64,000 bases of DNA from Escherichia phage vB_Eco_F27: the sequence record OP870146.1. The stretch is one strand, 5' to 3'. A model generated the notes under the pieces. It had not been told where the DNA came from. It saw only the letters and a list, made by a program, of their open reading frames with translations, and ran no database searches. Positions 19,685 through 30,204 of the stretch are shown piece after piece. Position numbers and translations under genes: made by a program. Numbering within the stretch: position 1 is the first letter of the stretch; each line of letters opens with the position of its first letter.

Positions 19685-21771
19685 TATCCTTGGACAAATT
19701 TAAACGGAACTGATTCTAAATCCATTAAAGATGCTAACAATTTCAAACCTTTAGGTGCACTAGTTTTTTCTACAAATGAGGAGAACGATACCGGCTCAAC
19801 TGATTCGATTTCACCCGTCATAGCAACCACCTCGCCTGTTTCCATGAGAACATCACCATCGTAAATGACAGCTTCATCTAACTGGTCTGAGGACATGACT
19901 TCAGCTTGAATAAATTTAAGGTTGGATTCTAAACCTGCACCAGTGTCAGATGACGCATCTGTAATTTTATTTATCTGCAAGAGAATGCCTCTAGGCAAAA
20001 TAATTTCTTGCTCATTAGGGTGATTACTCAACTGTCCCGGATAAATCACGTTAACTTTATGGGCGCCATCAATAGCCCATCCAACGTTAACACGGATTTG
20101 TTCTGGTGCATGCATAGCTGTTCTTACTTGACTAGGAGAAATAGTAACACCTTCGTCATTATTGTCAATGTTAAGCTCTTTGCGAACTTCTTCAGGAGCA
20201 AGTCCAAGGGCAACGTTCTCTTTAAACCCACCGAAAATAATAGGAGCTAGTGAAGTGGAAACATAGTTTCTGAAATAGAATACCTTATTTTTAACCATTG
20301 CTTCGTAAATAGGCATTCTGATAGACTGAGCTCTATATAACGTTAGTCCTTCAGGTAAACGGTCTCCATTTAAAAACGCCGAATCAAGACCATCAATAGC
20401 GCGTTTAACTTCATCTTCATCTGCAACATCGTAAAAATCTGGTTTATAACGACCTAACAACATATTATTGATATCGGTATACGCAGAAGAGGCATATTCA
20501 CGAATAGCTCGTTTTTCAGCAACAGAGTATTGTTTAGGGTCCCGATTCATTGTTATATTAAAGGTGCCTCTAGCCGATTCTCGTGCATAAGTATACATCA
20601 CATTAGACAAGAACGCTGATTTACGTTGTTTCCAAGTTTTTTCAGATACTTCAGCTAAAACATCGTCGGCCAGTTGGAAATTATCACGTCTAAAATCTTC
20701 AAACCATTCGTCTTTAATAGAGTCTGCAATTTCATTTGCAGCTTCAACAAAAGCAGCTAATGCTTTAACAGATGTTGTTTTTTCAGTTTTAATTTTCTTA
20801 GCAAACTTTTCTAAAGTTGGCTTAATAACACTACCATAAGAAACTTCATCAGCAAATCTAAAGGATTCATCAATACGATTATAAATCTTATTTTCGATAT
20901 CAGCAACTAAAGTGCCTTTTGCTGTGGATGATGCTTGGGCCAGTACGATTTCATATGCTTCAGGAAGTAATTCGGCTGTAGCTGGGCCGCTAACTTCTTT
21001 AGCAGAATTTTCGTATTTCTGGAATAACTCACCTTCTTGGCGGTCAGCTTCTAAAGATTGACTTGCTGCAATAGCACGACGAGAAATTTTAGTACGAGCA
21101 ATAACAGGCTTATCTTTACGTTTTTCTTCTACAGCAGCAATAGAACCAGCGATAGCCGTTTCTTTGGTGACCTTTTCGCCGGTCTTTTTACTCACATAAA
21201 CTTCGCCAACATCAGAATCTACTTTCGCGTACAACTCTGTGTTAATGTTAGGGATGCCTTTAATATCTTCAATGTTGGCATTTTTACGAACCATCATCAC
21301 ATAGGTGTGTTTACCTGTGAATTGATACATTGCCGACAATACTTTAAAACGACCACTGGTTTTAGTAGAAACTAAACGAGCAAGAAGAGTTTGAAGCTGC
21401 TGTCCGCGTCCTTTCAATTTCTTGGTAGGGAATCGGAACAGAACCGCATCCATACGAAGAGCTTTAACCTGTTCATACACTGTATTGAAAATGGTGTTGA
21501 TTGCATCAATAGGAGCAGGACCAAGGCCATTTTTCAATTCAGCTAGATTACCCTTTTCAGACAGACTCATAATAACAACATGAGCGTATTTGTCGCCAAG
21601 TTTAACTTGTTTTACAGCGTCGCCTTCGGAAAGGTAAGAGAATAAACGAACTACAATATTTGTATCGATATCACCAATTTTCCAGACTTGTGGAACTTTA
21701 GCTTTAGGGTTCAAATTGACGACAGGAAGACTGCCTTCAGATTCAAACACTTCATTTAATTGTTCAGACAT
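19684..21771 (-). CDS. alt: Alt mono-ADP-ribosyltransferase
   Basis: ORF track 695 aa; ART-type motifs in the C-terminal half (R...STS...E pattern); position next to gene 30 as in T4. Confidence 0.85.
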   Translation of the reverse strand: MSEQLNEVFESEGSLPVVNLNPKAKVPQVWKIGDIDTNIVVRLFSYLSEGDAVKQVKLGDKYAHVVIMSLSEKGNLAELKNGLGPAPIDAINTIFNTVYEQVKALRMDAVLFRFPTKKLKGRGQQLQTLLARLVSTKTSGRFKVLSAMYQFTGKHTYVMMVRKNANIEDIKGIPNINTELYAKVDSDVGEVYVSKKTGEKVTKETAIAGSIAAVEEKRKDKPVIARTKISRRAIAASQSLEADRQEGELFQKYENSAKEVSGPATAELLPEAYEIVLAQASSTAKGTLVADIENKIYNRIDESFRFADEVSYGSVIKPTLEKFAKKIKTEKTTSVKALAAFVEAANEIADSIKDEWFEDFRRDNFQLADDVLAEVSEKTWKQRKSAFLSNVMYTYARESARGTFNITMNRDPKQYSVAEKRAIREYASSAYTDINNMLLGRYKPDFYDVADEDEVKRAIDGLDSAFLNGDRLPEGLTLYRAQSIRMPIYEAMVKNKVFYFRNYVSTSLAPIIFGGFKENVALGLAPEEVRKELNIDNNDEGVTISPSQVRTAMHAPEQIRVNVGWAIDGAHKVNVIYPGQLSNHPNEQEIILPRGILLQINKITDASSDTGAGLESNLKFIQAEVMSSDQLDEAVIYDGDVLMETGEVVAMTGEIESVEPVSFSSFVEKTSAPKGLKLLASLMDLESVPFKFVQG

Positions 21772-21811
21772 AGTGTTTTCCTTTTAGTAATAATTTATAT
21801 TTATGCCAAAA

Positions 21812-21827
21812 AGAGCCCGAAGGCTCT
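21812..21827 (-). terminator. UUCG hairpin between the 62-aa ORF and alt
   Basis: Minus strand AGAGCC-UUCG-GGCUCU followed by UUUUGGCAUAAAUAUAAAUUA. Confidence 0.45.
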
Positions 21828-22015
21828 TAATCCACAATCGGAAGCAAAGTACGATAAACTTCAAAATTAGAGCCTTTTTCGTACTTATCGAAATTGTCCA
21901 TAAAAATATGATAGGAATCGTTATTAGGAAAATCTAATATAATCTGAGAGCAAGAGGTGGAAACATCTCCACCATCCTTCTTAGCTACAATAACTGTTTC
22001 TAAATAAGCTTTCAT
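21827..22015 (-). CDS. hypothetical small protein, 62 aa, coupled to gene 30
   Basis: ATG overlaps the gene 30 stop (TAATG); ORF track frame trimmed to MKAYLETV... Confidence 0.4.
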   Translation of the reverse strand: MKAYLETVIVAKKDGGDVSTSCSQIILDFPNNDSYHIFMDNFDKYEKGSNFEVYRTLLPIVD

Positions 22016-23508
22016 TATAAACCTGTCTGGGACCACGGTCCAAATACGTCTTCAAACGAATCCGCTTCTGTTTTATCAAAACGGAACCCTTTAATAATTG
22101 GGAGGAAAATACCTACAGTGCCTTCACGTCCTTTAGAATGAACCCAACCATTGCATTCACAATCAGCAATACGTCCAATCAATTTACCTTCACGAGCTTC
22201 GGTCATTAATCGTTCACGGTCCAAATCATGTCGCTCATCTAAAGGAATAAGAACCTTTACACCATCAACTGTTTTATGAGTTGTATCTTTAAACCCTGAA
22301 CCACAATCGGTTGTAATACGACGACAACGTGATACGAGTTCGACACCACCTAATTTGTTAGGGTCTTTAGAGTGTTCATAGTATCCTACAACTTCTAAAG
22401 CGATATCAATAACTTCTTTAAATTTAATTAGGTTCTTAGAACGTTTGTTTTCCCAATATGAATCACGGTTTTTAAGGATAATACCTTCAAGACCTTGGTC
22501 AACATATTTTTTATAAACCACTTTAGCTTCGTCAAGATTACGAACTAACTGATTTTCAATTGGCTCAATTCGTTTAAAGCCTTCAGCCATATTTTCAAGA
22601 GCAGCAAAACGAACATCGTATTTCTGACCTTTAATTTTGCCATCAGAATAGACTTCATCTAAAGGAACATAGTCCCAGGCTTGAAGAACCATACCTTCAG
22701 CTTCTTTAGGAGAAATAGTCCCTTGAAGAGATTTATTTGCTAAACCGTTTGAAGTGCTACGGTCTGCAACTTGTACTTCTTCGGATTCTTCATTATCACC
22801 AAATAAGAACGACAGGTCATTTCCTGAGCTCACAGCCTTTTTAATATCGAATGAATGATAAACTAATTCACCGTCGATTAAAACCCCATTAGGGTGTCTT
22901 TCACGAGCTTCTTTAGTCATTTCCATTAGTTCATCCGCTAATAGGGTAAGACCATGGTATTCATTACCAGCACGAGAAAAGAATTGAACACCATCATCGC
23001 GAACTTCAGCGAAACAACGAGCACCATCTGCTTTTAATTGAGCAAATGCAGGCCATTTAATATTTTTAGTAATCAATTTCTCATCATATGCAGATGCTAA
23101 CATCTGTGGTTGCAATTGAATAAGTCCAGGCCACACCTTATTCGCGATAGACACTGAAGCACCTACTTCAAGGTCGCGCATCATTACACGACGAAGGACT
23201 TCTACATCATCGGGTTTACCATCAGCGATATAACCCATGAGCTCTTTAATTGCAGCATTACCAGTGAGTTTACGAGTAGCTAATGTGAACTCAATAAAAT
23301 CCAACATGTCATCTAATTCAAGAAGTCCATACGCTTGAGACCTTTCACCTGGTCCTGGCCATTTCTTAATATAATACTGGATACCACGTGCATATGTTAA
23401 ACGATACACACGTTCAAGTAATTTGTTGTCCTTATTTTTCTTAAGGATTTCTTGTTTTGTTTTAGTAGAACCGATCGCAGCTATTTGGTTTAAAATATCT
23501 AAAATCAT
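22015..23508 (-). CDS. 30: DNA ligase gp30
   Basis: ORF track 497 aa; translation (MILDILNQIAAIGSTKTKQEILKKNKDNKLLERVYRLTYARGIQYYIKK...) recognised as T4 DNA ligase. Confidence 0.95.
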   Translation of the reverse strand: MILDILNQIAAIGSTKTKQEILKKNKDNKLLERVYRLTYARGIQYYIKKWPGPGERSQAYGLLELDDMLDFIEFTLATRKLTGNAAIKELMGYIADGKPDDVEVLRRVMMRDLEVGASVSIANKVWPGLIQLQPQMLASAYDEKLITKNIKWPAFAQLKADGARCFAEVRDDGVQFFSRAGNEYHGLTLLADELMEMTKEARERHPNGVLIDGELVYHSFDIKKAVSSGNDLSFLFGDNEESEEVQVADRSTSNGLANKSLQGTISPKEAEGMVLQAWDYVPLDEVYSDGKIKGQKYDVRFAALENMAEGFKRIEPIENQLVRNLDEAKVVYKKYVDQGLEGIILKNRDSYWENKRSKNLIKFKEVIDIALEVVGYYEHSKDPNKLGGVELVSRCRRITTDCGSGFKDTTHKTVDGVKVLIPLDERHDLDRERLMTEAREGKLIGRIADCECNGWVHSKGREGTVGIFLPIIKGFRFDKTEADSFEDVFGPWSQTGL

Positions 23509-23774
23509 TTGATGTCCTCGATTTTGGTTACGGTTCTATTATAAGCCACTTCATCTAGAAGCGATTTCAGCGTTTTCTGATAAGTGGTAATCCATTTACC
23601 GAGACCTTCAACATAATATTCTGAAATGTAGATGAACCCTTGTTCAACACACTCTTTAAATATTTCTGCGTCTTTTACTGAACGAAACAATGGCCAATCT
23701 CGAAAGAACATGTTAACGTGACCGTAGTCACGCGTTGTGTTTTTGCCATCTGTAATATCATGAACTACAAACAT
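23505..23774 (-). CDS. hypothetical protein (30.1 position)
   Basis: ORF track 89 aa; ATGA coupling. Confidence 0.5.
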   Translation of the reverse strand: MFVVHDITDGKNTTRDYGHVNMFFRDWPLFRSVKDAEIFKECVEQGFIYISEYYVEGLGKWITTYQKTLKSLLDEVAYNRTVTKIEDIK

Positions 23775-23783
23775 AATTAACCC

Positions 23784-24599
23784 TTAACAATTTATAGACC
23801 AAGTCCATTTAGACGAATCTAAAGGAAAGTTTTGAATCGTCCACCATGGCTGCATATCGGTTGGTCCTGGAGTTCGCCAGGTATACGGATTCGACGGAGC
23901 GCCGATTTGATTAGGCCATGCGCCTGGACTTGTTGTACCAGATTCTTTAAGCAAATCCGCCAATCGTTTTAAAAGGTCTTCACGATCTGAATCTGAATTA
24001 TGCTCTGGTGGAACCAAACGAGATTCAATATCATCCCACGTGTGTACACGTTGTGCAGTACGAGGAATGGCATCACGTTCACCACGAGCCAACCAATAAA
24101 TCGGTACATTAAGAATTTCTGCTGCATGGTCACAGTGATGAGCTAAATCGTCAACGTAACAAATCACGTTATATTTTGTTTTAGCTAGTTCGAATAATTG
24201 TTCCTTTGAAGAATCATGACCACACATCATTACTTCAGAGAAAGCGCCTGGGAACAAAGCATTCAAATTAAATTGTCTATTCAATCGAGCATCAATTGAA
24301 TCACCTAGCGCCGTCACAGCTACAAAATTATAGTCTTCTTTTAGTTTATTGATAACTCGAAGAGCATCCGAATAAGGCGCTAAGTAACGAATAAAATCAG
24401 AGCGATTATATTTTTCTATTAATTGTTTACCGAGATTATCGTCGGTATTGAATAGTTTACCAGGAGAAATAAATTTTTCGTCCTGAATCATTTTTAAAAT
24501 ATGTTCTAATGGAAGATTATATTTTTGGGCAAAATAAGGAAGTCCAGATTGCCAGCTTAAACATACACCATCAATATCAGTCAAAATAGTAGGCTTCAT
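23784..24599 (-). CDS. HAD-like hydrolase-fold protein (30.2 position)
   Basis: ORF track 271 aa; N-terminal DxDxV motif (ILTDIDGVCL) typical of HAD phosphatases. Confidence 0.5.
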   Translation of the reverse strand: MKPTILTDIDGVCLSWQSGLPYFAQKYNLPLEHILKMIQDEKFISPGKLFNTDDNLGKQLIEKYNRSDFIRYLAPYSDALRVINKLKEDYNFVAVTALGDSIDARLNRQFNLNALFPGAFSEVMMCGHDSSKEQLFELAKTKYNVICYVDDLAHHCDHAAEILNVPIYWLARGERDAIPRTAQRVHTWDDIESRLVPPEHNSDSDREDLLKRLADLLKESGTTSPGAWPNQIGAPSNPYTWRTPGPTDMQPWWTIQNFPLDSSKWTWSINC

Positions 24600-25063
24600 A
24601 AAGAGTCTCTTAATAGGTTTAACACATCAACAAATTCAGCTTCGGTTAGTATTGTATCATCTTTTGTTAGACCACTAGCCATGCTGTGCTTCAAAATTTT
24701 TCCTTTAGAGGCTTGTAAGGCATCACGAAACCCCTTGTTTTGGATCGCGGCTTCAAAATATGCATTTGTGTATAATTCTTTCCACGCTTCGGAGTATCTT
24801 GAAAATGGAACTCCTAACCAGAAGAGAGTCCCACGGTCCTGAGCTCTTGCATAAGACCTTCCAGCTTGCTGTGCAGCCAATCCAGACAACCTAAATATAC
24901 GTCTTTGTTGTTCAATATTTTTCACCTTACATCCTTGGAGAAATCCTTCAAGACCTCCGAATTGAATACCATCCATAACAAAAGGCCATTGAGCAAAGTT
25001 ACTTAATGCACATGACGGCCATTTGAAATTACTTCTTATTTCTAATTCAGACATCTTTAACAC
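24596..25063 (-). CDS. NADAR/YbiA (DUF1768)-like protein (30.3 position)
   Basis: ORF track 155 aa; motif LSNFAQWPFVMDGIQFGGLEGFLQGCKV resembles YbiA-family SNF...WP...DG...E..Q..K signature. Confidence 0.5.
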   Translation of the reverse strand: MLKMSELEIRSNFKWPSCALSNFAQWPFVMDGIQFGGLEGFLQGCKVKNIEQQRRIFRLSGLAAQQAGRSYARAQDRGTLFWLGVPFSRYSEAWKELYTNAYFEAAIQNKGFRDALQASKGKILKHSMASGLTKDDTILTEAEFVDVLNLLRDSL

Positions 25064-25265
25064 TTATAATTTCAACATCAGCCCAATGTCCGTATCCAGG
25101 TATACGGTCTTCGATAGATAAATTTCTGTCATTTTTAGGCATTTTAATTGACGTAACGTATGGTTCTAAACGGTTTTCCGCGTAATATGGAAAAACGTCG
25201 GTTACACGATAAGTAACTTCAATCATTTCCGTACCAAACAATTTCTGGATTAATTTATTCAACAT
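25047..25265 (-). CDS. hypothetical protein
   Basis: ORF track 72 aa; 30.x cluster. Confidence 0.4.
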   Translation of the reverse strand: MLNKLIQKLFGTEMIEVTYRVTDVFPYYAENRLEPYVTSIKMPKNDRNLSIEDRIPGYGHWADVEIISVKDV

Positions 25266-25452
25266 GTTTCAACCCTTTAATAGGAGATAACTCTTTACCC
25301 ATACGTATGTCAGAAGTCCCATCAACCCATTGAACAGCATACGCTTCATTGATAATTCCAGCGGCAGTTTTAAATTCGTTGAGAACTTTAAAAATCATCC
25401 CAGGGATTCCAACACCTTTTAATTGGACTGTTTGTGCTATTAAAAATTTCAT
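25255..25452 (-). CDS. hypothetical protein
   Basis: ORF track 65 aa; 30.x cluster. Confidence 0.4.
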   Translation of the reverse strand: MKFLIAQTVQLKGVGIPGMIFKVLNEFKTAAGIINEAYAVQWVDGTSDIRMGKELSPIKGLKHVE

Positions 25453-25506
25453 ATTTTTCCACTTACTAAAGAAATCATTATACTCTAATCCGTCCTTGGA
25501 TGTACA

Positions 25507-26121
25507 CTACTTAATGAAATTAATTTCTACCGGATGAACAACAGGTTGAGCAGTGATATATTGAGTAATTGCTTTCATGACTAGAGCTTCAGAGCCAGGA
25601 TTTTTCTCAACGAATTCACGTGCTTGGTTATGAGCTTCAAGTTCACTTAGTAAACCACTTCGTTGACATCCACGGTCTTGAGTACCCTGTTCAGATAAAA
25701 AGGCGACGATGTATTTTTCATCGTCATACGGTTTAGACGGTTGAGCAAATGTTCCTTTACTTCCAAAAGGAGAGTTATGACGCCACATCACGCCGTTAGG
25801 AGTTTCAACCTTCGTATATTCGTGCGGGCCATTTTTCTTAGTTTCTTGATGTGGAACTTCATGGACCTTAGGGTTAGGACATTCAATAAAATGCTCATCT
25901 AAATCAGTCGAGAATATTAAAGTAAAACAATTACTAAATTTACCAACACCTGCCTGATAAATTTTACCTTCAGACGTTCTAATTTCACAAACCGAGCCAG
26001 CATCAGTAACTTCTAAAACTTCAAAAGGCTCGATAAGATCATATGAGAACATGTTTTTAAGGCGTGGAGTAATATCCCCATTTTTAAAATTCATTTTATA
26101 AAAAGTATTAACTTTAAACAT
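25507..26121 (-). CDS. hypothetical protein, 204 aa
   Basis: ORF track frame; start placed at MFKVNTFYK with GAGGAAA RBS directly after a GGGAGC-UUCG-GCUCCC hairpin. Confidence 0.5.
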   Translation of the reverse strand: MFKVNTFYKMNFKNGDITPRLKNMFSYDLIEPFEVLEVTDAGSVCEIRTSEGKIYQAGVGKFSNCFTLIFSTDLDEHFIECPNPKVHEVPHQETKKNGPHEYTKVETPNGVMWRHNSPFGSKGTFAQPSKPYDDEKYIVAFLSEQGTQDRGCQRSGLLSELEAHNQAREFVEKNPGSEALVMKAITQYITAQPVVHPVEINFIK

Positions 26122-26156
26122 AATTTCCTCAGTGGGAGCCGAAGCTCCCAATTAAT

Positions 26157-26522
26157 TTAGATATCAAATTCGTTAAGAACTACATCAAAGATTGCTTCGA
26201 GATGTTCAGGTTTAGCTCGGTTACTCAGGATATGACGAATCCAAGTTTTAACCAGAAGTTTACGATTAACACCATTCCAGCAAGGATGAGTACCTAAATC
26301 ACGCTGACGGAAATCATCATCTAATGCAATTTTAAAATTTGAACCTTCCATCGTGATTGAAACCGTGATACCATTTTCAAATCGCATATAAACGTAATTA
26401 GGAGTCATGCACTGTTCGATTTCACAAACTGTACCGTTTTCGTGTTTCCATAAGCAAATAACTTCAGAAGAACCAGCAATACCGTTAGAAACATATTTAC
26501 GTTCGAAGTTGGTGTAGTTCAT
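26157..26522 (-). CDS. hypothetical protein
   Basis: ORF track 121 aa; early-type promoter 26564-26592. Confidence 0.5.
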   Translation of the reverse strand: MNYTNFERKYVSNGIAGSSEVICLWKHENGTVCEIEQCMTPNYVYMRFENGITVSITMEGSNFKIALDDDFRQRDLGTHPCWNGVNRKLLVKTWIRHILSNRAKPEHLEAIFDVVLNEFDI

Positions 26523-26563
26523 TTTATTCTCCAGATGTTTAAGTTGTTTGTTGGTACAGGTCT

Positions 26564-26592
26564 ATAATAACATAACCTGTACCAAAGTAAAC
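26564..26592 (-). promoter_or_regulatory. T4 early-type promoter
   Basis: GTTTACtttggtacaggttatgtTATTAT on minus strand. Confidence 0.5.
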
Positions 26593-26596
26593 TGGT

Positions 26597-26965
26597 TTAT
26601 GCAACTTTAATCCAATTGTCTAAATTTAAAACACCTTTGGCTTTCATTTTTTCTATCAGGTTATCTGCTGTAATGCGTCCATTTTGATACCATGTAACAT
26701 CTTCAGAGTAACCAGTTTCTTCGTCAACATATGTTTCTGAACGAATTTTACCGGTAATAATAGTTTTTAATTCGTATGTGTCACCTGTGAAAAAGTTTGC
26801 TAACACAATTTTCCAAGAGAAATCATCAGAAGGACCTTCAGGGGTCATACAACCTACGAACTCAAATTGCTCTTTGTATAACATCCACTGGAATTCTTTA
26901 ATTTCGATAGCTTTATAACCATCGTGGTCTTTACATTTGATGTATGAGTTCAGATTGATTTTCAT
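26597..26965 (-). CDS. hypothetical protein
   Basis: ORF track 122 aa; early-type promoter 27028-27056. Confidence 0.5.
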   Translation of the reverse strand: MKINLNSYIKCKDHDGYKAIEIKEFQWMLYKEQFEFVGCMTPEGPSDDFSWKIVLANFFTGDTYELKTIITGKIRSETYVDEETGYSEDVTWYQNGRITADNLIEKMKAKGVLNLDNWIKVA

Positions 26966-27027
26966 TTTGTTCTCCAGGTTGTTTTATTGATTAGATGGTA
27001 CAAGTCTATAGTAACACATCCTACAGG

Positions 27028-27056
27028 AGAGTAAACATCTTTTTAAACTTTTTCTG
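27028..27056 (-). promoter_or_regulatory. T4 early-type promoter
   Basis: GTTTACtctcctgtaggatgtgtTACTAT on minus strand. Confidence 0.5.
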
Positions 27057-27072
27057 CCCTAAACGCACAAAA

Positions 27073-27090
27073 GGGAGACCGAAGTCTCCC
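27073..27090 (-). terminator. GGGAGAC-UUCG-GUCUCCC hairpin terminator after the 30.9-position gene
   Basis: Same 18-nt hairpin as at 3991; followed by UUUUGUGCGUUU. Confidence 0.55.
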
Positions 27091-27095
27091 TAAAA

Positions 27096-27275
27096 TTATG
27101 CAACAACCTTTCCAAAACGAGAAGCATCATCTCGAAGAACTGCACGTGCTCTGCGCATGATCTTCTCAACTGTTTGATTAATACGAGAGTTCGACCCACG
27201 CTTGTATCCAGCGCGTTTAGAGGTACCATCAACTTTCTTTTCAACTGCTTTCTTTGCTTTAGCTTGTTTTGCCAT
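27096..27275 (-). CDS. small lysine-rich basic protein, 59 aa (30.9 position)
   Basis: Hand translation MAKQAKAKKAVEKKVDGTSKRAGYKRGSNSRINQTVEKIMRRARAVLRDDASRFGKVVA; stop followed by UUCG hairpin terminator; the ORF-track call 27059..27244 is a TTG-initiated alternative frame. Confidence 0.5.
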   Translation of the reverse strand: MAKQAKAKKAVEKKVDGTSKRAGYKRGSNSRINQTVEKIMRRARAVLRDDASRFGKVVA

Positions 27276-27569
27276 TATAAATTCTCTTTAAATGAAAATG
27301 CAGGACTTATTGACATTGCCTGCGCAAGCCCTCAATGGGAACATAGGTTTTGGATATTTAACGACAGGATAACCATAAACCCGTCATCATACCAACCACG
27401 ACTTAGACAGATAACCTTTTTCTGACGCGTGATAGTACAAAATACATTCAAGAGGTACACCGTAAAACTGTCGGGGTCTTAAAACTATAATGATTCGCAA
27501 ATCATTAATCAGACAGTTCGACGGCTCCTCGATTTTCTAGCCGCACTAAGGTAGCGAATCACCTAAAAC

Positions 27570-28641: not shown

Positions 28642-29212
28642 AAAAGTTTCGGATTTGTTCCCAATTCAGAGAACGAAGATTATTACGAGAGTACTGAATT
28701 ACTTCAATACCGGCTTGTTTTAGAATGTCTGCCCAATTTTCAGGAGATCTGTCATATAATTCTGCGTATACAACCTTTTTAATACCTGACTGCGTAATAG
28801 CTTTAGTGCAATCAGGACATGGAGAAAGTGTCGTATACAACGTAGCACCTTCAATAGAATTACCTTTACGAGCTGCAAACAAAATTGCATTCAATTCCGC
28901 ATGGATTTCGTTATTAGCAGACCATGCACTATGAGCAGCCCGATGTTCTTTAGCCAAAACAAAATTATCCACCCGTCCAAATGCTGTAGTGCCTTCTTTA
29001 GGCCCAGCAACGATGACCGGGCTTGGTTTATTCTTCAACCAACCGTTTTCGGATGCATGTTCGCAACAGTTTGTACCACCTGAAGGAGAGCCATTATAAC
29101 CTGTAGAAATAATGCGTCCATCTTTTTCAATGACGGCACCAACTTTCCATGAACAACATTTTGATTCTTGAGAAATCAAATAAGCAATTTGAAGATATGT
29201 GCTAGCTTTCAT
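28631..29212 (-). CDS. cd: dCMP deaminase
   Basis: ORF track 193 aa; zinc deaminase motifs HAE...PCxxC. Confidence 0.9.
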   Translation of the reverse strand: MKASTYLQIAYLISQESKCCSWKVGAVIEKDGRIISTGYNGSPSGGTNCCEHASENGWLKNKPSPVIVAGPKEGTTAFGRVDNFVLAKEHRAAHSAWSANNEIHAELNAILFAARKGNSIEGATLYTTLSPCPDCTKAITQSGIKKVVYAELYDRSPENWADILKQAGIEVIQYSRNNLRSLNWEQIRNFCGE

Positions 29213-30204
29213 TATTGAACCTTATTAATATAAGTTAACAGCTCTTTAGTTTGTTCCCAACTGATGCACGCATCGGTAACGGAAACGCCATAGGACATAT
29301 TATCAGAAATTTTTTGATTTCCTTCATGTAGGAATGATTCTATCATAATTCCTTTGACCAAATCATTAGCTGCTAAATTTTTACCAATACCAATTTGATT
29401 GCTATAATGCCCAGCAGCGTTTGCATGGCTACAGTCAACCATTACATAATGATTCAGACCTACTGCACTTGCTTTGTTAGAAGCTTCTTGAATATCAGAA
29501 GAATGATAGTTCGGGCCGTTAGTCCCGCCACGCAATACGATATGCGTATTCTGATTACCTTCAGCTTCAACAATGCCTACAGTACCATCGACGTCCATAC
29601 CCATATACCGATGAGGCCAGGCGGCACTATACATCGCGTCTGTAGCTACTTTAATAGAACCATTGGTTGCGTTCTTGAAGCCTACGCACATCGGTAGACC
29701 TGAAGCAATTTCACGATGTGTCTGACTTTCAGTCGTACGGGCGCCAATAGCAACCCATGAGAAAATACCAGAAAGATACTTAATCGTGAATGGGTCTAAT
29801 ACTTCAGTTGCTAATGGAAGTCCCATACGTAGAAGTTTACGACACAATGTTCGTGCAACTATAAGACCGTGGTTCATATCAAAACTTCCATCAAGATATG
29901 GATCATTTACAAGACCTTTCCAACCTACGGTAGTTCGAGGCTTTTCAAAATAAACGCGCATCACTAACAGAACATTAGGAAGACGAGTTTGAAGTTCAGC
30001 CAGACGTTTGCCGTATTCAACAGCAGCAATAGGGTCATGAATTGAACAAGGACCTACAACAATAAGTTTGCGTGGGTCTTCACCGTTCATAATCGAATTA
30101 ACTTGTTCGCGATGAGAAGCCACTTGTGATGCGTAAGCTTCCGACAAAGGAATAATCTCAGCCAGTTCTTTTGGAGAAATAAGTTTTCCGACGACAGGTA
30201 ACAT
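29212..30204 (-). CDS. 3-deoxy-D-arabino-heptulosonate-7-phosphate (DAHP) synthase, AroG/F/H-like class I
   Basis: ORF track 330 aa; signature blocks LIVVGPCSIHDP, KPRTTVGWKG, GARTTESQ, CSHANA, ESFLHEGNQ, TDACISWE align with E. coli AroG catalytic/metal residues; ATGA coupling to cd. Confidence 0.85.
   Translation of the reverse strand: MLPVVGKLISPKELAEIIPLSEAYASQVASHREQVNSIMNGEDPRKLIVVGPCSIHDPIAAVEYGKRLAELQTRLPNVLLVMRVYFEKPRTTVGWKGLVNDPYLDGSFDMNHGLIVARTLCRKLLRMGLPLATEVLDPFTIKYLSGIFSWVAIGARTTESQTHREIASGLPMCVGFKNATNGSIKVATDAMYSAAWPHRYMGMDVDGTVGIVEAEGNQNTHIVLRGGTNGPNYHSSDIQEASNKASAVGLNHYVMVDCSHANAAGHYSNQIGIGKNLAANDLVKGIMIESFLHEGNQKISDNMSYGVSVTDACISWEQTKELLTYINKVQ

What the first reader, a model, noticed from the sequence alone, without database searches (positions are those of the whole stretch)
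23784..25063. HAD-like hydrolase plus NADAR/YbiA-like protein pair immediately upstream of DNA ligase and the Alt ADP-ribosyltransferase
The 155-aa ORF (24596-25063) carries the YbiA/NADAR-like signature LSNFAQWPFVMDGIQFGGLEGFLQGCKV; this family includes enzymes that process ADP-ribose adducts and N-glycosidic bonds. It is ATGA-coupled to a 271-aa ORF with a HAD phosphatase motif I (TDIDGV). The pair sits in the same early transcription unit as ligase and the packaged ADP-ribosyltransferase Alt. A NADAR-like enzyme could reverse nucleic-acid or protein ADP-ribosylation (for example counter-acting host DarT-type toxins) or trim phage-made ADP-ribose adducts; the HAD partner could dephosphorylate the product. 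This is inference from motifs only.
Basis: inference. Interest (0 to 1): 0.55.

Follow-up and report, generated by a model that had tools for sequence, protein, structure and literature searches.

The report
Known anti-DarT NADAR plus uncharacterised phosphatase
The two genes are real: one is the already-characterised T-even phage enzyme AdfN, which strips toxic ADP-ribose off phage DNA, and its neighbour is an uncharacterised nucleotidase-like phosphatase that published data and gene order suggest works independently of it.

Summary
The window is an RB69-like T-even coliphage (closest listed relative with a taxonomy line is a Mosigvirus). Both ORFs exist on the minus strand and overlap by ATGA.

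**The 155-aa ORF is T4 gene 30.3.**
- Its start is better placed at ATG 25054, giving 152 aa.
- It is 95% identical to T4 gp30.3, which is AdfN, a published NADAR-family DNA ADP-ribosylglycohydrolase that defeats the DarTG1 defence system.
- I confirmed the NADAR fold, the catalytic Glu36, Lys43 and His123, and an intact C-terminal helix. RB69 itself carries a frameshift there.

**The 271-aa ORF is T4 gene 30.2.**
- It is a genuine HAD-superfamily phosphatase with all four motifs conserved, a C1 cap and an NT5C-like (deoxyribonucleotidase-like) character.
- It has a hypervariable, disordered tail, and its substrate is unknown.

**The proposed partnership is not supported.**
- A published T4 transposon screen shows 30.2 is dispensable against DarTG1. 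Only 30.3 and 30.4 score.
- RB69 carries a 99% identical 30.2 yet is DarTG1-sensitive.
- 30.2 adjoins 30.3 in only 14 of 34 lineages, but adjoins DNA ligase in 30 of 34.

Overlapping gene junctions are the norm in this cluster. Overall this is an ordinary, largely explained locus.

The parts
24596..25054 (-). Gene 30.3 = adfN: a 152-aa NADAR-family DNA ADP-ribosylglycohydrolase (anti-DarT1 factor).
   Evidence: Pfam PF08010 at E=2e-68. 95% identity over 152 aa to T4 gp30.3. AF2 model pLDDT 95.3. The top three Foldseek PDB hits are the NADAR structures 2b3w, 8bau and 8bat. Function taken from PMC11825919.
24926..24949 (-). Catalytic segment of AdfN, from the Glu36 codon (24947-24949) to the Lys43 codon (24926-24928), within the EGFLQGCK motif.
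   Evidence: Codons verified. E36 is invariant and K43 nearly invariant across 45 family members. E36A and K43A impair T4 AdfN.
24686..24688 (-). His123 codon. This is the last-strand residue that marks the phage (gp30.3) NADAR clade, in place of the Glu or Asp of other NADARs.
   Evidence: Invariant in A2 and A3. The clade feature is described in PMC11125620.
24596..24640 (-). Codons for the last 14 residues of AdfN plus its stop codon, lying within the C-terminal helix (model helix 138-151). This segment is intact here. RB69 has a +T frameshift that the paper says truncates the protein 15 residues early.
   Evidence: The DNA alignment shows the extra T only in RB69. The model has helix 138-151. 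Truncation reduces activity.
23784..24599 (-). Gene 30.2: a 271-aa HAD-superfamily phosphatase with a C1 cap, NT5C-like, substrate unknown.
24000..24599 (-). HAD catalytic core plus cap (residues 1-200). Motif I is D8/D10 (24570-24578), motif II T96 (24312-24314), motif III K132 (24204-24206) and motif IV D150/D151 (24147-24152). The helical cap spans roughly residues 13-88.
   Evidence: Invariant or near-invariant columns in A1 and A5. Codons verified. Secondary structure.
23784..23999 (-). C-terminal extension of gp30.2 (residues 201-271). It is rich in Trp, Pro and Gly, and the model is low-confidence (pLDDT below 50) over residues 225-271. It is hypervariable between phages and absent in many.
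   Evidence: pLDDT below 50 for residues 225-271. The alignment shows no conservation after about residue 200, and many homologues are only 200-220 aa. It diverges from T4 but is identical to RB69.
24596..24599 (-). ATGA overlap of the 30.3 stop with the 30.2 start.
   Evidence: The same overlap occurs in T4.
25047..25054 (-). ATGTCTGA overlap of the 30.3 start with the 30.4 stop, a possible translational coupling of adfN to 30.4.
   Evidence: T4 has the same 8-nt overlap.

Best explanation
These are two adjacent but functionally independent accessory genes of an RB69-like T-even phage.

**Gene 30.3 is adfN.**
- It is a stand-alone NADAR-fold glycohydrolase.
- The host DarT1 toxin ADP-ribosylates guanine in replicating phage DNA. 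AdfN cuts the ADP-ribose off the base and so restores a replicable template.
- Glu36 and Lys43 contribute to catalysis and contact ADP-ribose by analogy with the PnNADAR structure. His123 is the clade-specific residue at the last-strand position that other NADARs fill with a catalytic Glu or Asp. The C-terminal helix is needed for full activity.
- This is shown for the T4 orthologue and inferred here from 95% identity. Because the allele is intact, this phage should resist DarTG1, unlike RB69.

**Gene 30.2 encodes a Mg2+-dependent, aspartyl-phosphate-forming HAD phosphomonoesterase.**
- It has a closed helical C1 cap, which points to a small-molecule substrate.
- The substrate is most likely a (deoxy)nucleoside monophosphate, as in NT5C-type 5'(3')-deoxyribonucleotidases.
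- The fold and motifs are shown here. The substrate is an inference.

The ATGA overlap reflects the generally compact packing of this gene cluster, not a dedicated two-gene module.
For: **30.3**
- Pfam Phage_30_3 at E=2e-68.
- 95% identity to T4 gp30.3 with E36, K43 and H123 retained.
- The profile hits YbiA 2b3w at E=0.0017.
- 10 of 45 family members also hit Pfam NADAR.
- AF2 pLDDT is 95.3. The only strong Foldseek PDB matches are the three NADAR structures 2b3w, 8bau and 8bat.
- There is no RB69-type frameshift.
- Published biochemistry and genetics of AdfN support the function. An independent T4 transposon screen gives log2FC -7.25 on DarTG1 hosts.

**30.2**
- D8, D10, T96, K132, D150 and D151 are conserved in 39 close homologues. 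D8, D10, K132 and D151 are invariant and T96 nearly invariant in 53 distant ones.
- The AF2 core is confident.
- 19 of 53 distant family members hit Pfam NT5C, best E=1.5e-9.
- The family profile's best PDB hit is 3bwv, a putative 5'(3')-deoxyribonucleotidase, at E=9.9e-6 over its full length.
- There is a precedent for a phage NT5C-like dNMP phosphatase, Dtm of phage PBS1.

**Independence of the two genes**
- 30.2 insertions are neutral on DarTG1 hosts, and only 30.3 and 30.4 are significant genome-wide.
- RB69 has a 99%-identical 30.2 yet is DarTG1-sensitive.
- 30.3 lies within 6 kb upstream of 30.2 in 14 of 34 non-redundant 30.2 lineages. 30.2 neighbours the NADAR in 5 of 35 NADAR lineages.
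- In several T4-like genomes the NADAR lies about 55 kb away, between 57B and e.6.
- No HAD-NADAR fusion was seen among the ten longer-than-typical hits scanned.
Against: - The window's gp30.2 itself does not reach any Pfam or NCBIfam gathering score. HAD_2 scores 15.5 bits against a cutoff of 23.8, so the HAD and NT5C assignments rest on profile, motif and fold evidence.
- 30.2 has no phenotype in any screen condition I could read (LB, M9, DarTG1), so its role is untested.
- The two genes do stay adjacent across several divergent T4-like genera. One distant contig (L111) carries a HAD and a NADAR about 0.7 kb apart in the opposite order. A weak functional link therefore cannot be excluded.
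- AdfN is reported to need an unidentified T-even factor for full activity.
- No assay was done on this phage.
Confidence: 0.8

Rival explanations
1. One reading: 30.3 and 30.2 form a two-enzyme module. The NADAR removes ADP-ribose adducts and the HAD phosphatase processes the released product, for example ADP-ribose or ribose-5-phosphate. On this view gp30.2 could be the unidentified T-even factor that AdfN needs.
For: - The ATGA overlap and same-strand adjacency occur here and in T4.
- Adjacency or near-adjacency is retained in 14 of 34 30.2 lineages, including distant T4-like genera.
- One distant contig has a HAD and a NADAR within 0.7 kb.
- AdfN is reported to need a T-even-encoded helper.
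Against: - T4 30.2 insertions give log2FC -0.12 (p=0.61) on DarTG1 hosts, against -7.25 for 30.3. Only two genes, 30.3 and 30.4, are significant genome-wide.
- RB69 carries a 99%-identical 30.2 and is still DarTG1-sensitive.
- In 20 of 34 30.2 lineages no NADAR lies within 6 kb. In 30 of 35 NADAR lineages no 30.2 lies nearby.
- No fusions were found among the ten longer-than-typical hits scanned.
- Overlapping junctions are generic in this cluster.
Confidence: 0.05
2. gp30.2 works with DNA ligase rather than with AdfN. It would be a DNA-end or nick 'healing' phosphatase (3'-phosphatase) that prepares ends for gp30, or it would remove a nucleotide by-product or inhibitor of ligation.
For: - Ligase lies within 3 kb downstream of 30.2, usually less than 400 nt away, in 30 of 34 non-redundant lineages. 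This is far more conserved than the 30.3 adjacency.
Against: - gp30.2 has a C1 cap of about 75 residues. From general knowledge of HAD enzymes, such caps usually go with small-molecule substrates, whereas polynucleotide phosphatases are capless.
- T4 already encodes Pnkp.
- Ligase is essential but 30.2 is fully dispensable, with 72 of 72 TA sites hit.
- Conserved synteny around core genes in T4-like genomes can be historical rather than functional.
Confidence: 0.07
3. gp30.2 is a counter-defence or pool-editing nucleotidase. It would destroy a host-made nucleotide, such as a signal, a chain terminator or a non-canonical dNMP, or it would bias dNMP pools, as the PBS1 dTMP phosphatase does.
For: - NT5C-like family membership is suggested.
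- A phage precedent exists in Dtm_PBS1.
- The gene sits in an accessory early-gene cluster beside a proven anti-defence gene.
- It is dispensable on K-12 in LB and M9, which fits a conditional role.
Against: - No phenotype is known in the conditions I could read.
- No PADLOC or anti-defence annotation was found.
- This overlaps the best explanation, which already assumes a nucleotide substrate, and differs only in the biological purpose assigned.
Confidence: 0.12
4. AdfN's main job is to trim phage-made ADP-ribose adducts laid down by Alt, ModA or ModB, rather than host-made DNA adducts.
For: The only support is co-orientation within about 3 kb of alt.
Against: - The tested NADARs, including the T4 enzyme, hydrolysed guanosine-linked ADP-ribose on DNA and not thymidine-linked ADP-ribose.
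- adfN is dispensable without DarTG1 and becomes essential with it.
- alt insertions are neutral on DarTG1 hosts.
- In many T4-like phages the NADAR sits far from alt.
Confidence: 0.03

Closest known systems
AdfN (T4 gp30.3), anti-DarT factor NADAR (Johannesman et al., Nat Commun 2025, PMC11825919)
   Same: - 95% amino-acid identity over the full 152 aa.
- Same position between 30.4 and 30.2, with the same 8-nt and 4-nt overlaps.
- E36, K43, H123 and the C-terminal helix are all present.
   Different: - It sits in an RB69-like (Mosigvirus-type) genome.
- The type phage RB69 carries a frameshifted, poorly active allele, whereas this one is intact.
- Activity was not assayed for this allele.
DarG1-type and other NADAR enzymes (G. 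lovleyi NADAR 8bat, P. nicotianae NADAR 8bau, E. coli YbiA 2b3w; Pfam PF08719)
   Same: - YbiA fold. Foldseek gives TM 0.66 to 2b3w and probability of at least 0.99 to 8bau and 8bat.
- It shares the SNF...DG...E..FQ..K motif.
   Different: - It lacks the N-terminal extension of the DarT1-linked antitoxins.
- His replaces the Glu or Asp of the last strand.
- It is not encoded next to a DarT.
- The T4 orthologue cannot act as an antitoxin in uninfected cells.
- The window protein does not itself hit PF08719 at E<=1.
NT5C-family 5'(3')-deoxyribonucleotidases (cdN and mdN; S. epidermidis 3bwv; Pfam PF06941) and the phage dTMP phosphatase Dtm_PBS1
   Same: - HAD core with DxD, T, K and DD motifs.
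- Helical C1 cap.
- The DGV..[FW].SGL stretch after motif I aligns with cdN.
- The family profile hits 3bwv over its full length at E=9.9e-6.
   Different: - Sequence identity is only about 15-19%.
- The window protein itself is below every Pfam threshold.
- It has a hypervariable C-terminal tail of about 70 aa that is absent from NT5C enzymes.
- No substrate is known.
T4 Pnkp (PseT) 3'-phosphatase domain

Membership tests
NADAR superfamily (YbiA fold, PF08719) | YbiA/NADAR three-dimensional fold | tested here: met
   The AF2 model has pLDDT 95.3 and pTM 0.90. Foldseek against the PDB gives 2b3w (E=6.3e-5, TMq 0.66), 8bau and 8bat as the top three hits. Everything else has E>3.
NADAR superfamily (YbiA fold, PF08719) | Significant sequence-profile relationship to PF08719 or YbiA | tested here: met
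   The window protein alone gives only PF08010, with no PF08719 hit at E<=1, and phmmer to YbiA gives E=0.39. However, the family profile hits YbiA at E=0.0017, and 10 of 45 family members hit PF08719, best E=3.4e-6.
NADAR superfamily (YbiA fold, PF08719) | Conserved catalytic Glu and Lys of the E..FQ..K motif, plus a charged or His residue in the last strand | tested here: met
   E36 and H123 are invariant and K43 is at least 90% conserved in 45 sequences. Codons were verified.
NADAR superfamily (YbiA fold, PF08719) | Hydrolysis of guanine-linked ADP-ribose on DNA | not testable with these tools
   Shown in vitro for T4 gp30.3 by two groups. Inferred here from 95% identity.
AdfN (T-even anti-DarT1 factor) | Orthology to T4 30.3: high identity, same locus, full length including the C-terminal helix | tested here: met
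   145 of 152 residues are identical. The flanking genes and overlaps are the same. There is no RB69-type +T frameshift.
AdfN (T-even anti-DarT1 factor) | Confers resistance to DarTG1 during infection | not testable with these tools
   Shown for T4 and T2 by deletion, complementation and a transposon screen.
HAD superfamily phosphatases | Rossmannoid HAD fold | tested here: met
HAD superfamily phosphatases | Four catalytic motifs: I DxD, II T/S, III K, IV DD. The second Asp of motif I marks phosphotransferases rather than dehalogenases. | tested here: met
   D8, D10, K132, D150 and D151 are invariant and T96 is at least 90% conserved in 39 homologues. D8, D10, K132 and D151 are invariant in 53 distant relatives.
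HAD superfamily phosphatases | Reaches a curated family threshold (Pfam or NCBIfam) | tested here: not met
   HAD_2 scores 15.5 bits against a cutoff of 23.8. TIGR01428 scores 12.7 against 125.4. This is a divergent member, so membership rests on fold and motifs.
NT5C 5'(3')-deoxyribonucleotidase family (PF06941) | Profile-level membership | tested here: inconclusive
NT5C 5'(3')-deoxyribonucleotidase family (PF06941) | (d)NMP phosphatase activity | not testable with these tools
   No biochemical data exist. No paper in the searched library contains 'gp30.2'.

The most novel reading that the evidence does not exclude
gp30.2 is a previously unrecognised phage nucleotidase whose conserved partner is DNA ligase, not AdfN. 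Ligase is adjacent in 30 of 34 lineages. On this reading gp30.2 removes a nucleotide that would otherwise poison ligation or replication, or a nucleotide made by a host defence. That would make it a new conditional counter-defence or DNA-metabolism function in T-even phages.
Probability: 0.12. Interest if true: 0.55.

Novelty: already known. Interest (0 to 1): 0.22.

Why it matters
The main biological idea in the finding, a phage NADAR that reverses DarT-type DNA ADP-ribosylation, was published in 2024-2025. The finding therefore adds no new mechanism.

Three points remain useful:
- This RB69-like phage carries an intact adfN. It should resist DarTG1, unlike RB69 itself, which matters for host-range prediction in the Mosigvirus group.
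- gp30.2 can now be annotated as a catalytically intact, NT5C-like HAD phosphatase rather than 'hypothetical'. It is a widespread, ligase-linked T4-like gene that still lacks a substrate.
- The obvious guess that the HAD is AdfN's missing helper can be set aside. This narrows the search for that factor.

Tried and rejected
- **Single-sequence searches were too weak to decide either assignment.** 30.3 against YbiA gave E=0.39, 30.2 against cdN gave E=0.52, and the close-homologue 30.2 profile against the PDB gave E=0.19. Family profiles and fold searches were needed.
- **NCBIfam and PADLOC gave nothing useful**.
- **Rfam found no RNA family** in 21500-27500 on either strand.
- **The short plus-strand ORFs** inside both genes have no support and were ignored.
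- **HAD-NADAR fusions or other informative domain fusions** were sought among ten longer-than-typical 30.2-like proteins. None had a second Pfam domain.
- **A conserved neighbour of phage NADARs** was sought as a candidate for the 'missing factor'. No neighbour occurs in more than 5 of 35 lineages.
- **The 'same early transcription unit as Alt' claim could not be tested.** The sigma-70-like and terminator scans were at shuffle level. No TATAAATA late-promoter match lies on the minus strand between 27935 and alt. Only co-orientation is shown.
- **A literature search for 'gp30.2' returned no paper**.
- **One supplement look-up was wasted** on a phrase that did not match.
Full report
**Identity of the window.** The 1.9-kb region matches 678 T-even phage records. 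The best is Escherichia phage vB_EcoM_G2469 at 98.9% identity. vB_EcoM_SA79RD, at 98.4%, is classified as Mosigvirus, the RB69 group. The gene order on the minus strand is 30.5, 30.4, 30.3, 30.2, 30.1, 30 (DNA ligase), alt.1, alt. This matches T4 and RB69.

**Observation check.**
The ATGA overlap at 24596-24599 is real.
T4 annotates the equivalent of ATG 25054, giving 152 aa. That start overlaps the 30.4 stop by 8 nt and makes the published catalytic residue numbers E36 and K43 fit exactly.
- The overlap is not a special mark of a module. The six junctions from 30.5 to alt.1 are -11, -8, -4, +9, -4 and -1 nt.

**Gene 30.3 is adfN.**
- The protein hits Pfam Phage_30_3 at E=2e-68. It is 145/152 identical to T4 gp30.3.
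- T4 gp30.3 was renamed AdfN (anti-DarT factor NADAR). It removes ADP-ribose from DarT1-modified DNA in vitro and is necessary for T4 to resist DarTG1. Expressed ectopically, it restores plaquing of RB69 on DarTG1 hosts. E36A and K43A mutants give only partial rescue, and E36A served as the catalytically inactive control in vitro. A truncation lacking the C-terminal helix is also weakened (PMC11825919).
- An independent study showed guanosine-ADP-ribose hydrolysis by the T4 protein. It also noted that phage NADARs carry His where other NADARs carry Glu or Asp in the last strand (PMC11125620).
- A T4 transposon screen found 30.3 insertions lost on DarTG1 hosts, with log2FC -7.25 (bioRxiv 10.1101/2025.11.20.689424).

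**Membership re-tested here.**
- The window protein alone does not hit Pfam NADAR. A 9-sequence family profile hits E. coli YbiA at E=0.0017.
- A profile search finds 3135 relatives, and 10 of 45 sampled members also hit PF08719.
- E36, H123 and the SNF and D28 positions are invariant, and K43 is nearly so.
- The AlphaFold model is very confident, with pLDDT 95.3.
- Its only meaningful PDB matches are the three NADAR structures 2b3w, 8bau and 8bat. These are the same three reported for T4 AdfN.

**A local point of interest.** RB69, the type Mosigvirus, has an extra T that frameshifts adfN and leaves RB69 sensitive to DarTG1. The three-way DNA alignment shows that the window lacks this insertion and reads through like T4. 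This RB69-like phage is therefore predicted to be DarTG1-resistant. That is an inference.

**Gene 30.2 is a HAD phosphatase.**
- Direct library hits are sub-threshold. HAD_2 gives E=0.019 at 15.5 bits against a 23.8 cutoff, and TIGR01428 gives 12.7 bits.
- In 39 homologues from diverse T4-like phages, D8 and D10 (motif I), K132 (motif III) and D150/D151 (motif IV) are invariant. T96 (motif II) is nearly invariant.
- In 53 relatives at 19-36% identity, D8, D10, R108, K132 and D151 remain invariant.
- The AlphaFold model has pLDDT above 90 across most of residues 1-190. A helical insertion of about 75 residues between motifs I and II forms a C1 cap. The tail is low-confidence (pLDDT below 50) over residues 225-271.
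- The DxD form of motif I indicates a phosphoryl-transfer enzyme rather than a dehalogenase. This follows from established HAD knowledge.

**Subfamily of gp30.2.**
- 6 of 39 close relatives and 19 of 53 distant relatives hit Pfam NT5C, best E=1.5e-9.
- The broad family profile's best PDB hit is the putative 5'(3')-deoxyribonucleotidase 3bwv, at E=9.9e-6 over the full length. Other nucleotide phosphatases follow.
- cdN and mdN give the lowest rmsd values in Foldseek.
- A phage precedent exists: the PBS1 dTMP phosphatase is NT5C-like (PMC12697855).
- The C-terminal 70 residues are hypervariable or absent in relatives. They differ from T4 but are identical to RB69.

**Are the two genes partners?** Four lines of evidence say no.
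1. In the T4 transposon screen on DarTG1 hosts, the sheet header reports exactly two significant genes. They are 30.3 (log2FC -7.25) and 30.4 (-1.79, adjusted p=0.014). 30.2 is neutral (-0.12, p=0.61), as is alt (-0.01). 30.2 is also dispensable on K-12, with 72 of 72 TA sites hit, and neutral in minimal medium.
2. RB69 encodes a gp30.2 that is 269/271 identical to this one. Yet RB69 is DarTG1-sensitive, and AdfN alone rescues it.
3. Gene order argues against a module.
   - Among 34 non-redundant 30.2 lineages with adequate flanks, a 30.3 homologue lies within 6 kb upstream in 14 and directly adjacent in 7. DNA ligase lies just downstream in 30.
   - Among 35 non-redundant NADAR lineages, 30.2 is a neighbour in 5, and no other neighbour is conserved in more than 5.
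   - In several T4-like genomes both genes are present but about 55 kb apart, with the NADAR between 57B and e.6.
4. No HAD-NADAR fusions appeared among the ten longer-than-typical relatives scanned.

Residual evidence for a link is weak. Adjacency persists in several divergent genera, and one distant contig has a HAD and a NADAR 0.7 kb apart in reverse order.

**Link to Alt.** Only co-orientation is shown. Promoter and terminator scans are at background level. The tested NADARs hydrolysed guanosine-linked but not thymidine-linked ADP-ribose on DNA. alt is irrelevant to the DarTG1 phenotype.

**Verdict.** The NADAR/anti-DarT reading is right but already published. The HAD reading is right at the fold and motif level. 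The 'pair' hypothesis is not supported. The remaining unknown is the substrate and role of gp30.2, a widespread, ligase-adjacent, NT5C-like phosphatase of T4-like phages.

Noticed in passing
window 25047-25265 (-), gene 30.4, a 72-aa ORF: In the published T4 transposon screen on DarTG1 hosts, only two genes are significant genome-wide: adfN and this small upstream gene 30.4 (log2FC -1.79, adjusted p=0.014). Its stop overlaps the adfN start by 8 nt. The signal may therefore reflect polarity or translational coupling, or 30.4 may be the unidentified T-even helper of AdfN. No 30.4 match was found next to the relocated NADAR in the eleven loci checked by tblastn.
   Followed up: partly
window 24596-25054 compared with RB69 (L160:6268-6681): The window is an RB69-like phage but lacks RB69's single-T insertion that truncates AdfN. 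It should differ from RB69 in DarTG1 sensitivity.
   Followed up: yes
window 22015-24599 and loci L003-L078: 30.2 is followed by DNA ligase, usually less than 400 nt downstream, in 30 of 34 non-redundant T4-like lineages. This is much tighter than its link to 30.3. It is unclear whether this is functional or just conserved synteny.
   Followed up: partly
window 23784-23999 (-), C-terminal tail of gp30.2: The tail is rich in Trp, Pro and Gly, is modelled with low confidence, and is hypervariable. It is unrelated to T4's tail, identical to RB69's, and missing in many phages. It could be a lineage-specific docking peptide.
   Followed up: partly
window 24691-24918 (-): T4 annotates an internal out-of-frame gene 30.3' inside 30.3. 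The equivalent frame here has no ATG and contains an internal stop, so 30.3' is not conserved and is probably not a real gene.
   Followed up: yes
window 25507-26151 (-), a 214-aa ORF: T4 has 30.6 at this position. This phage instead has an unrelated 214-aa protein (phrog_17531, no Pfam hit), which is also present in SA79RD. This is a hyperplastic spot in the cluster.
   Followed up: no
window 29212-30204 (-), a 330-aa ORF upstream of cd: The close relative SA79RD annotates the gene at this position as a Tyr-sensitive DAHP synthase (phospho-2-dehydro-3-deoxyheptonate aldolase), an apparent auxiliary metabolic gene absent from T4 here. I did not check the window ORF itself against any library.
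   Followed up: no
L111:4736-6456 (IMGVR_UViG_2786546475_000015): A distant phage contig carries a 190-aa 30.2-like HAD (26% identity) about 0.7 kb upstream of a gp30.3-like NADAR. This is the reverse of the T4 order, with two small ORFs between them.
   Followed up: partly
loci L121, L147, L139, L136, L158, L124, L116, L103, L138: In these T4-like genomes the NADAR gene sits in the variable region downstream of 57B. In eight of the nine loci e.6 lies further downstream, and in L124 gene e does instead. This is far from 30.2, so adfN behaves as a mobile accessory gene.
   Followed up: yes
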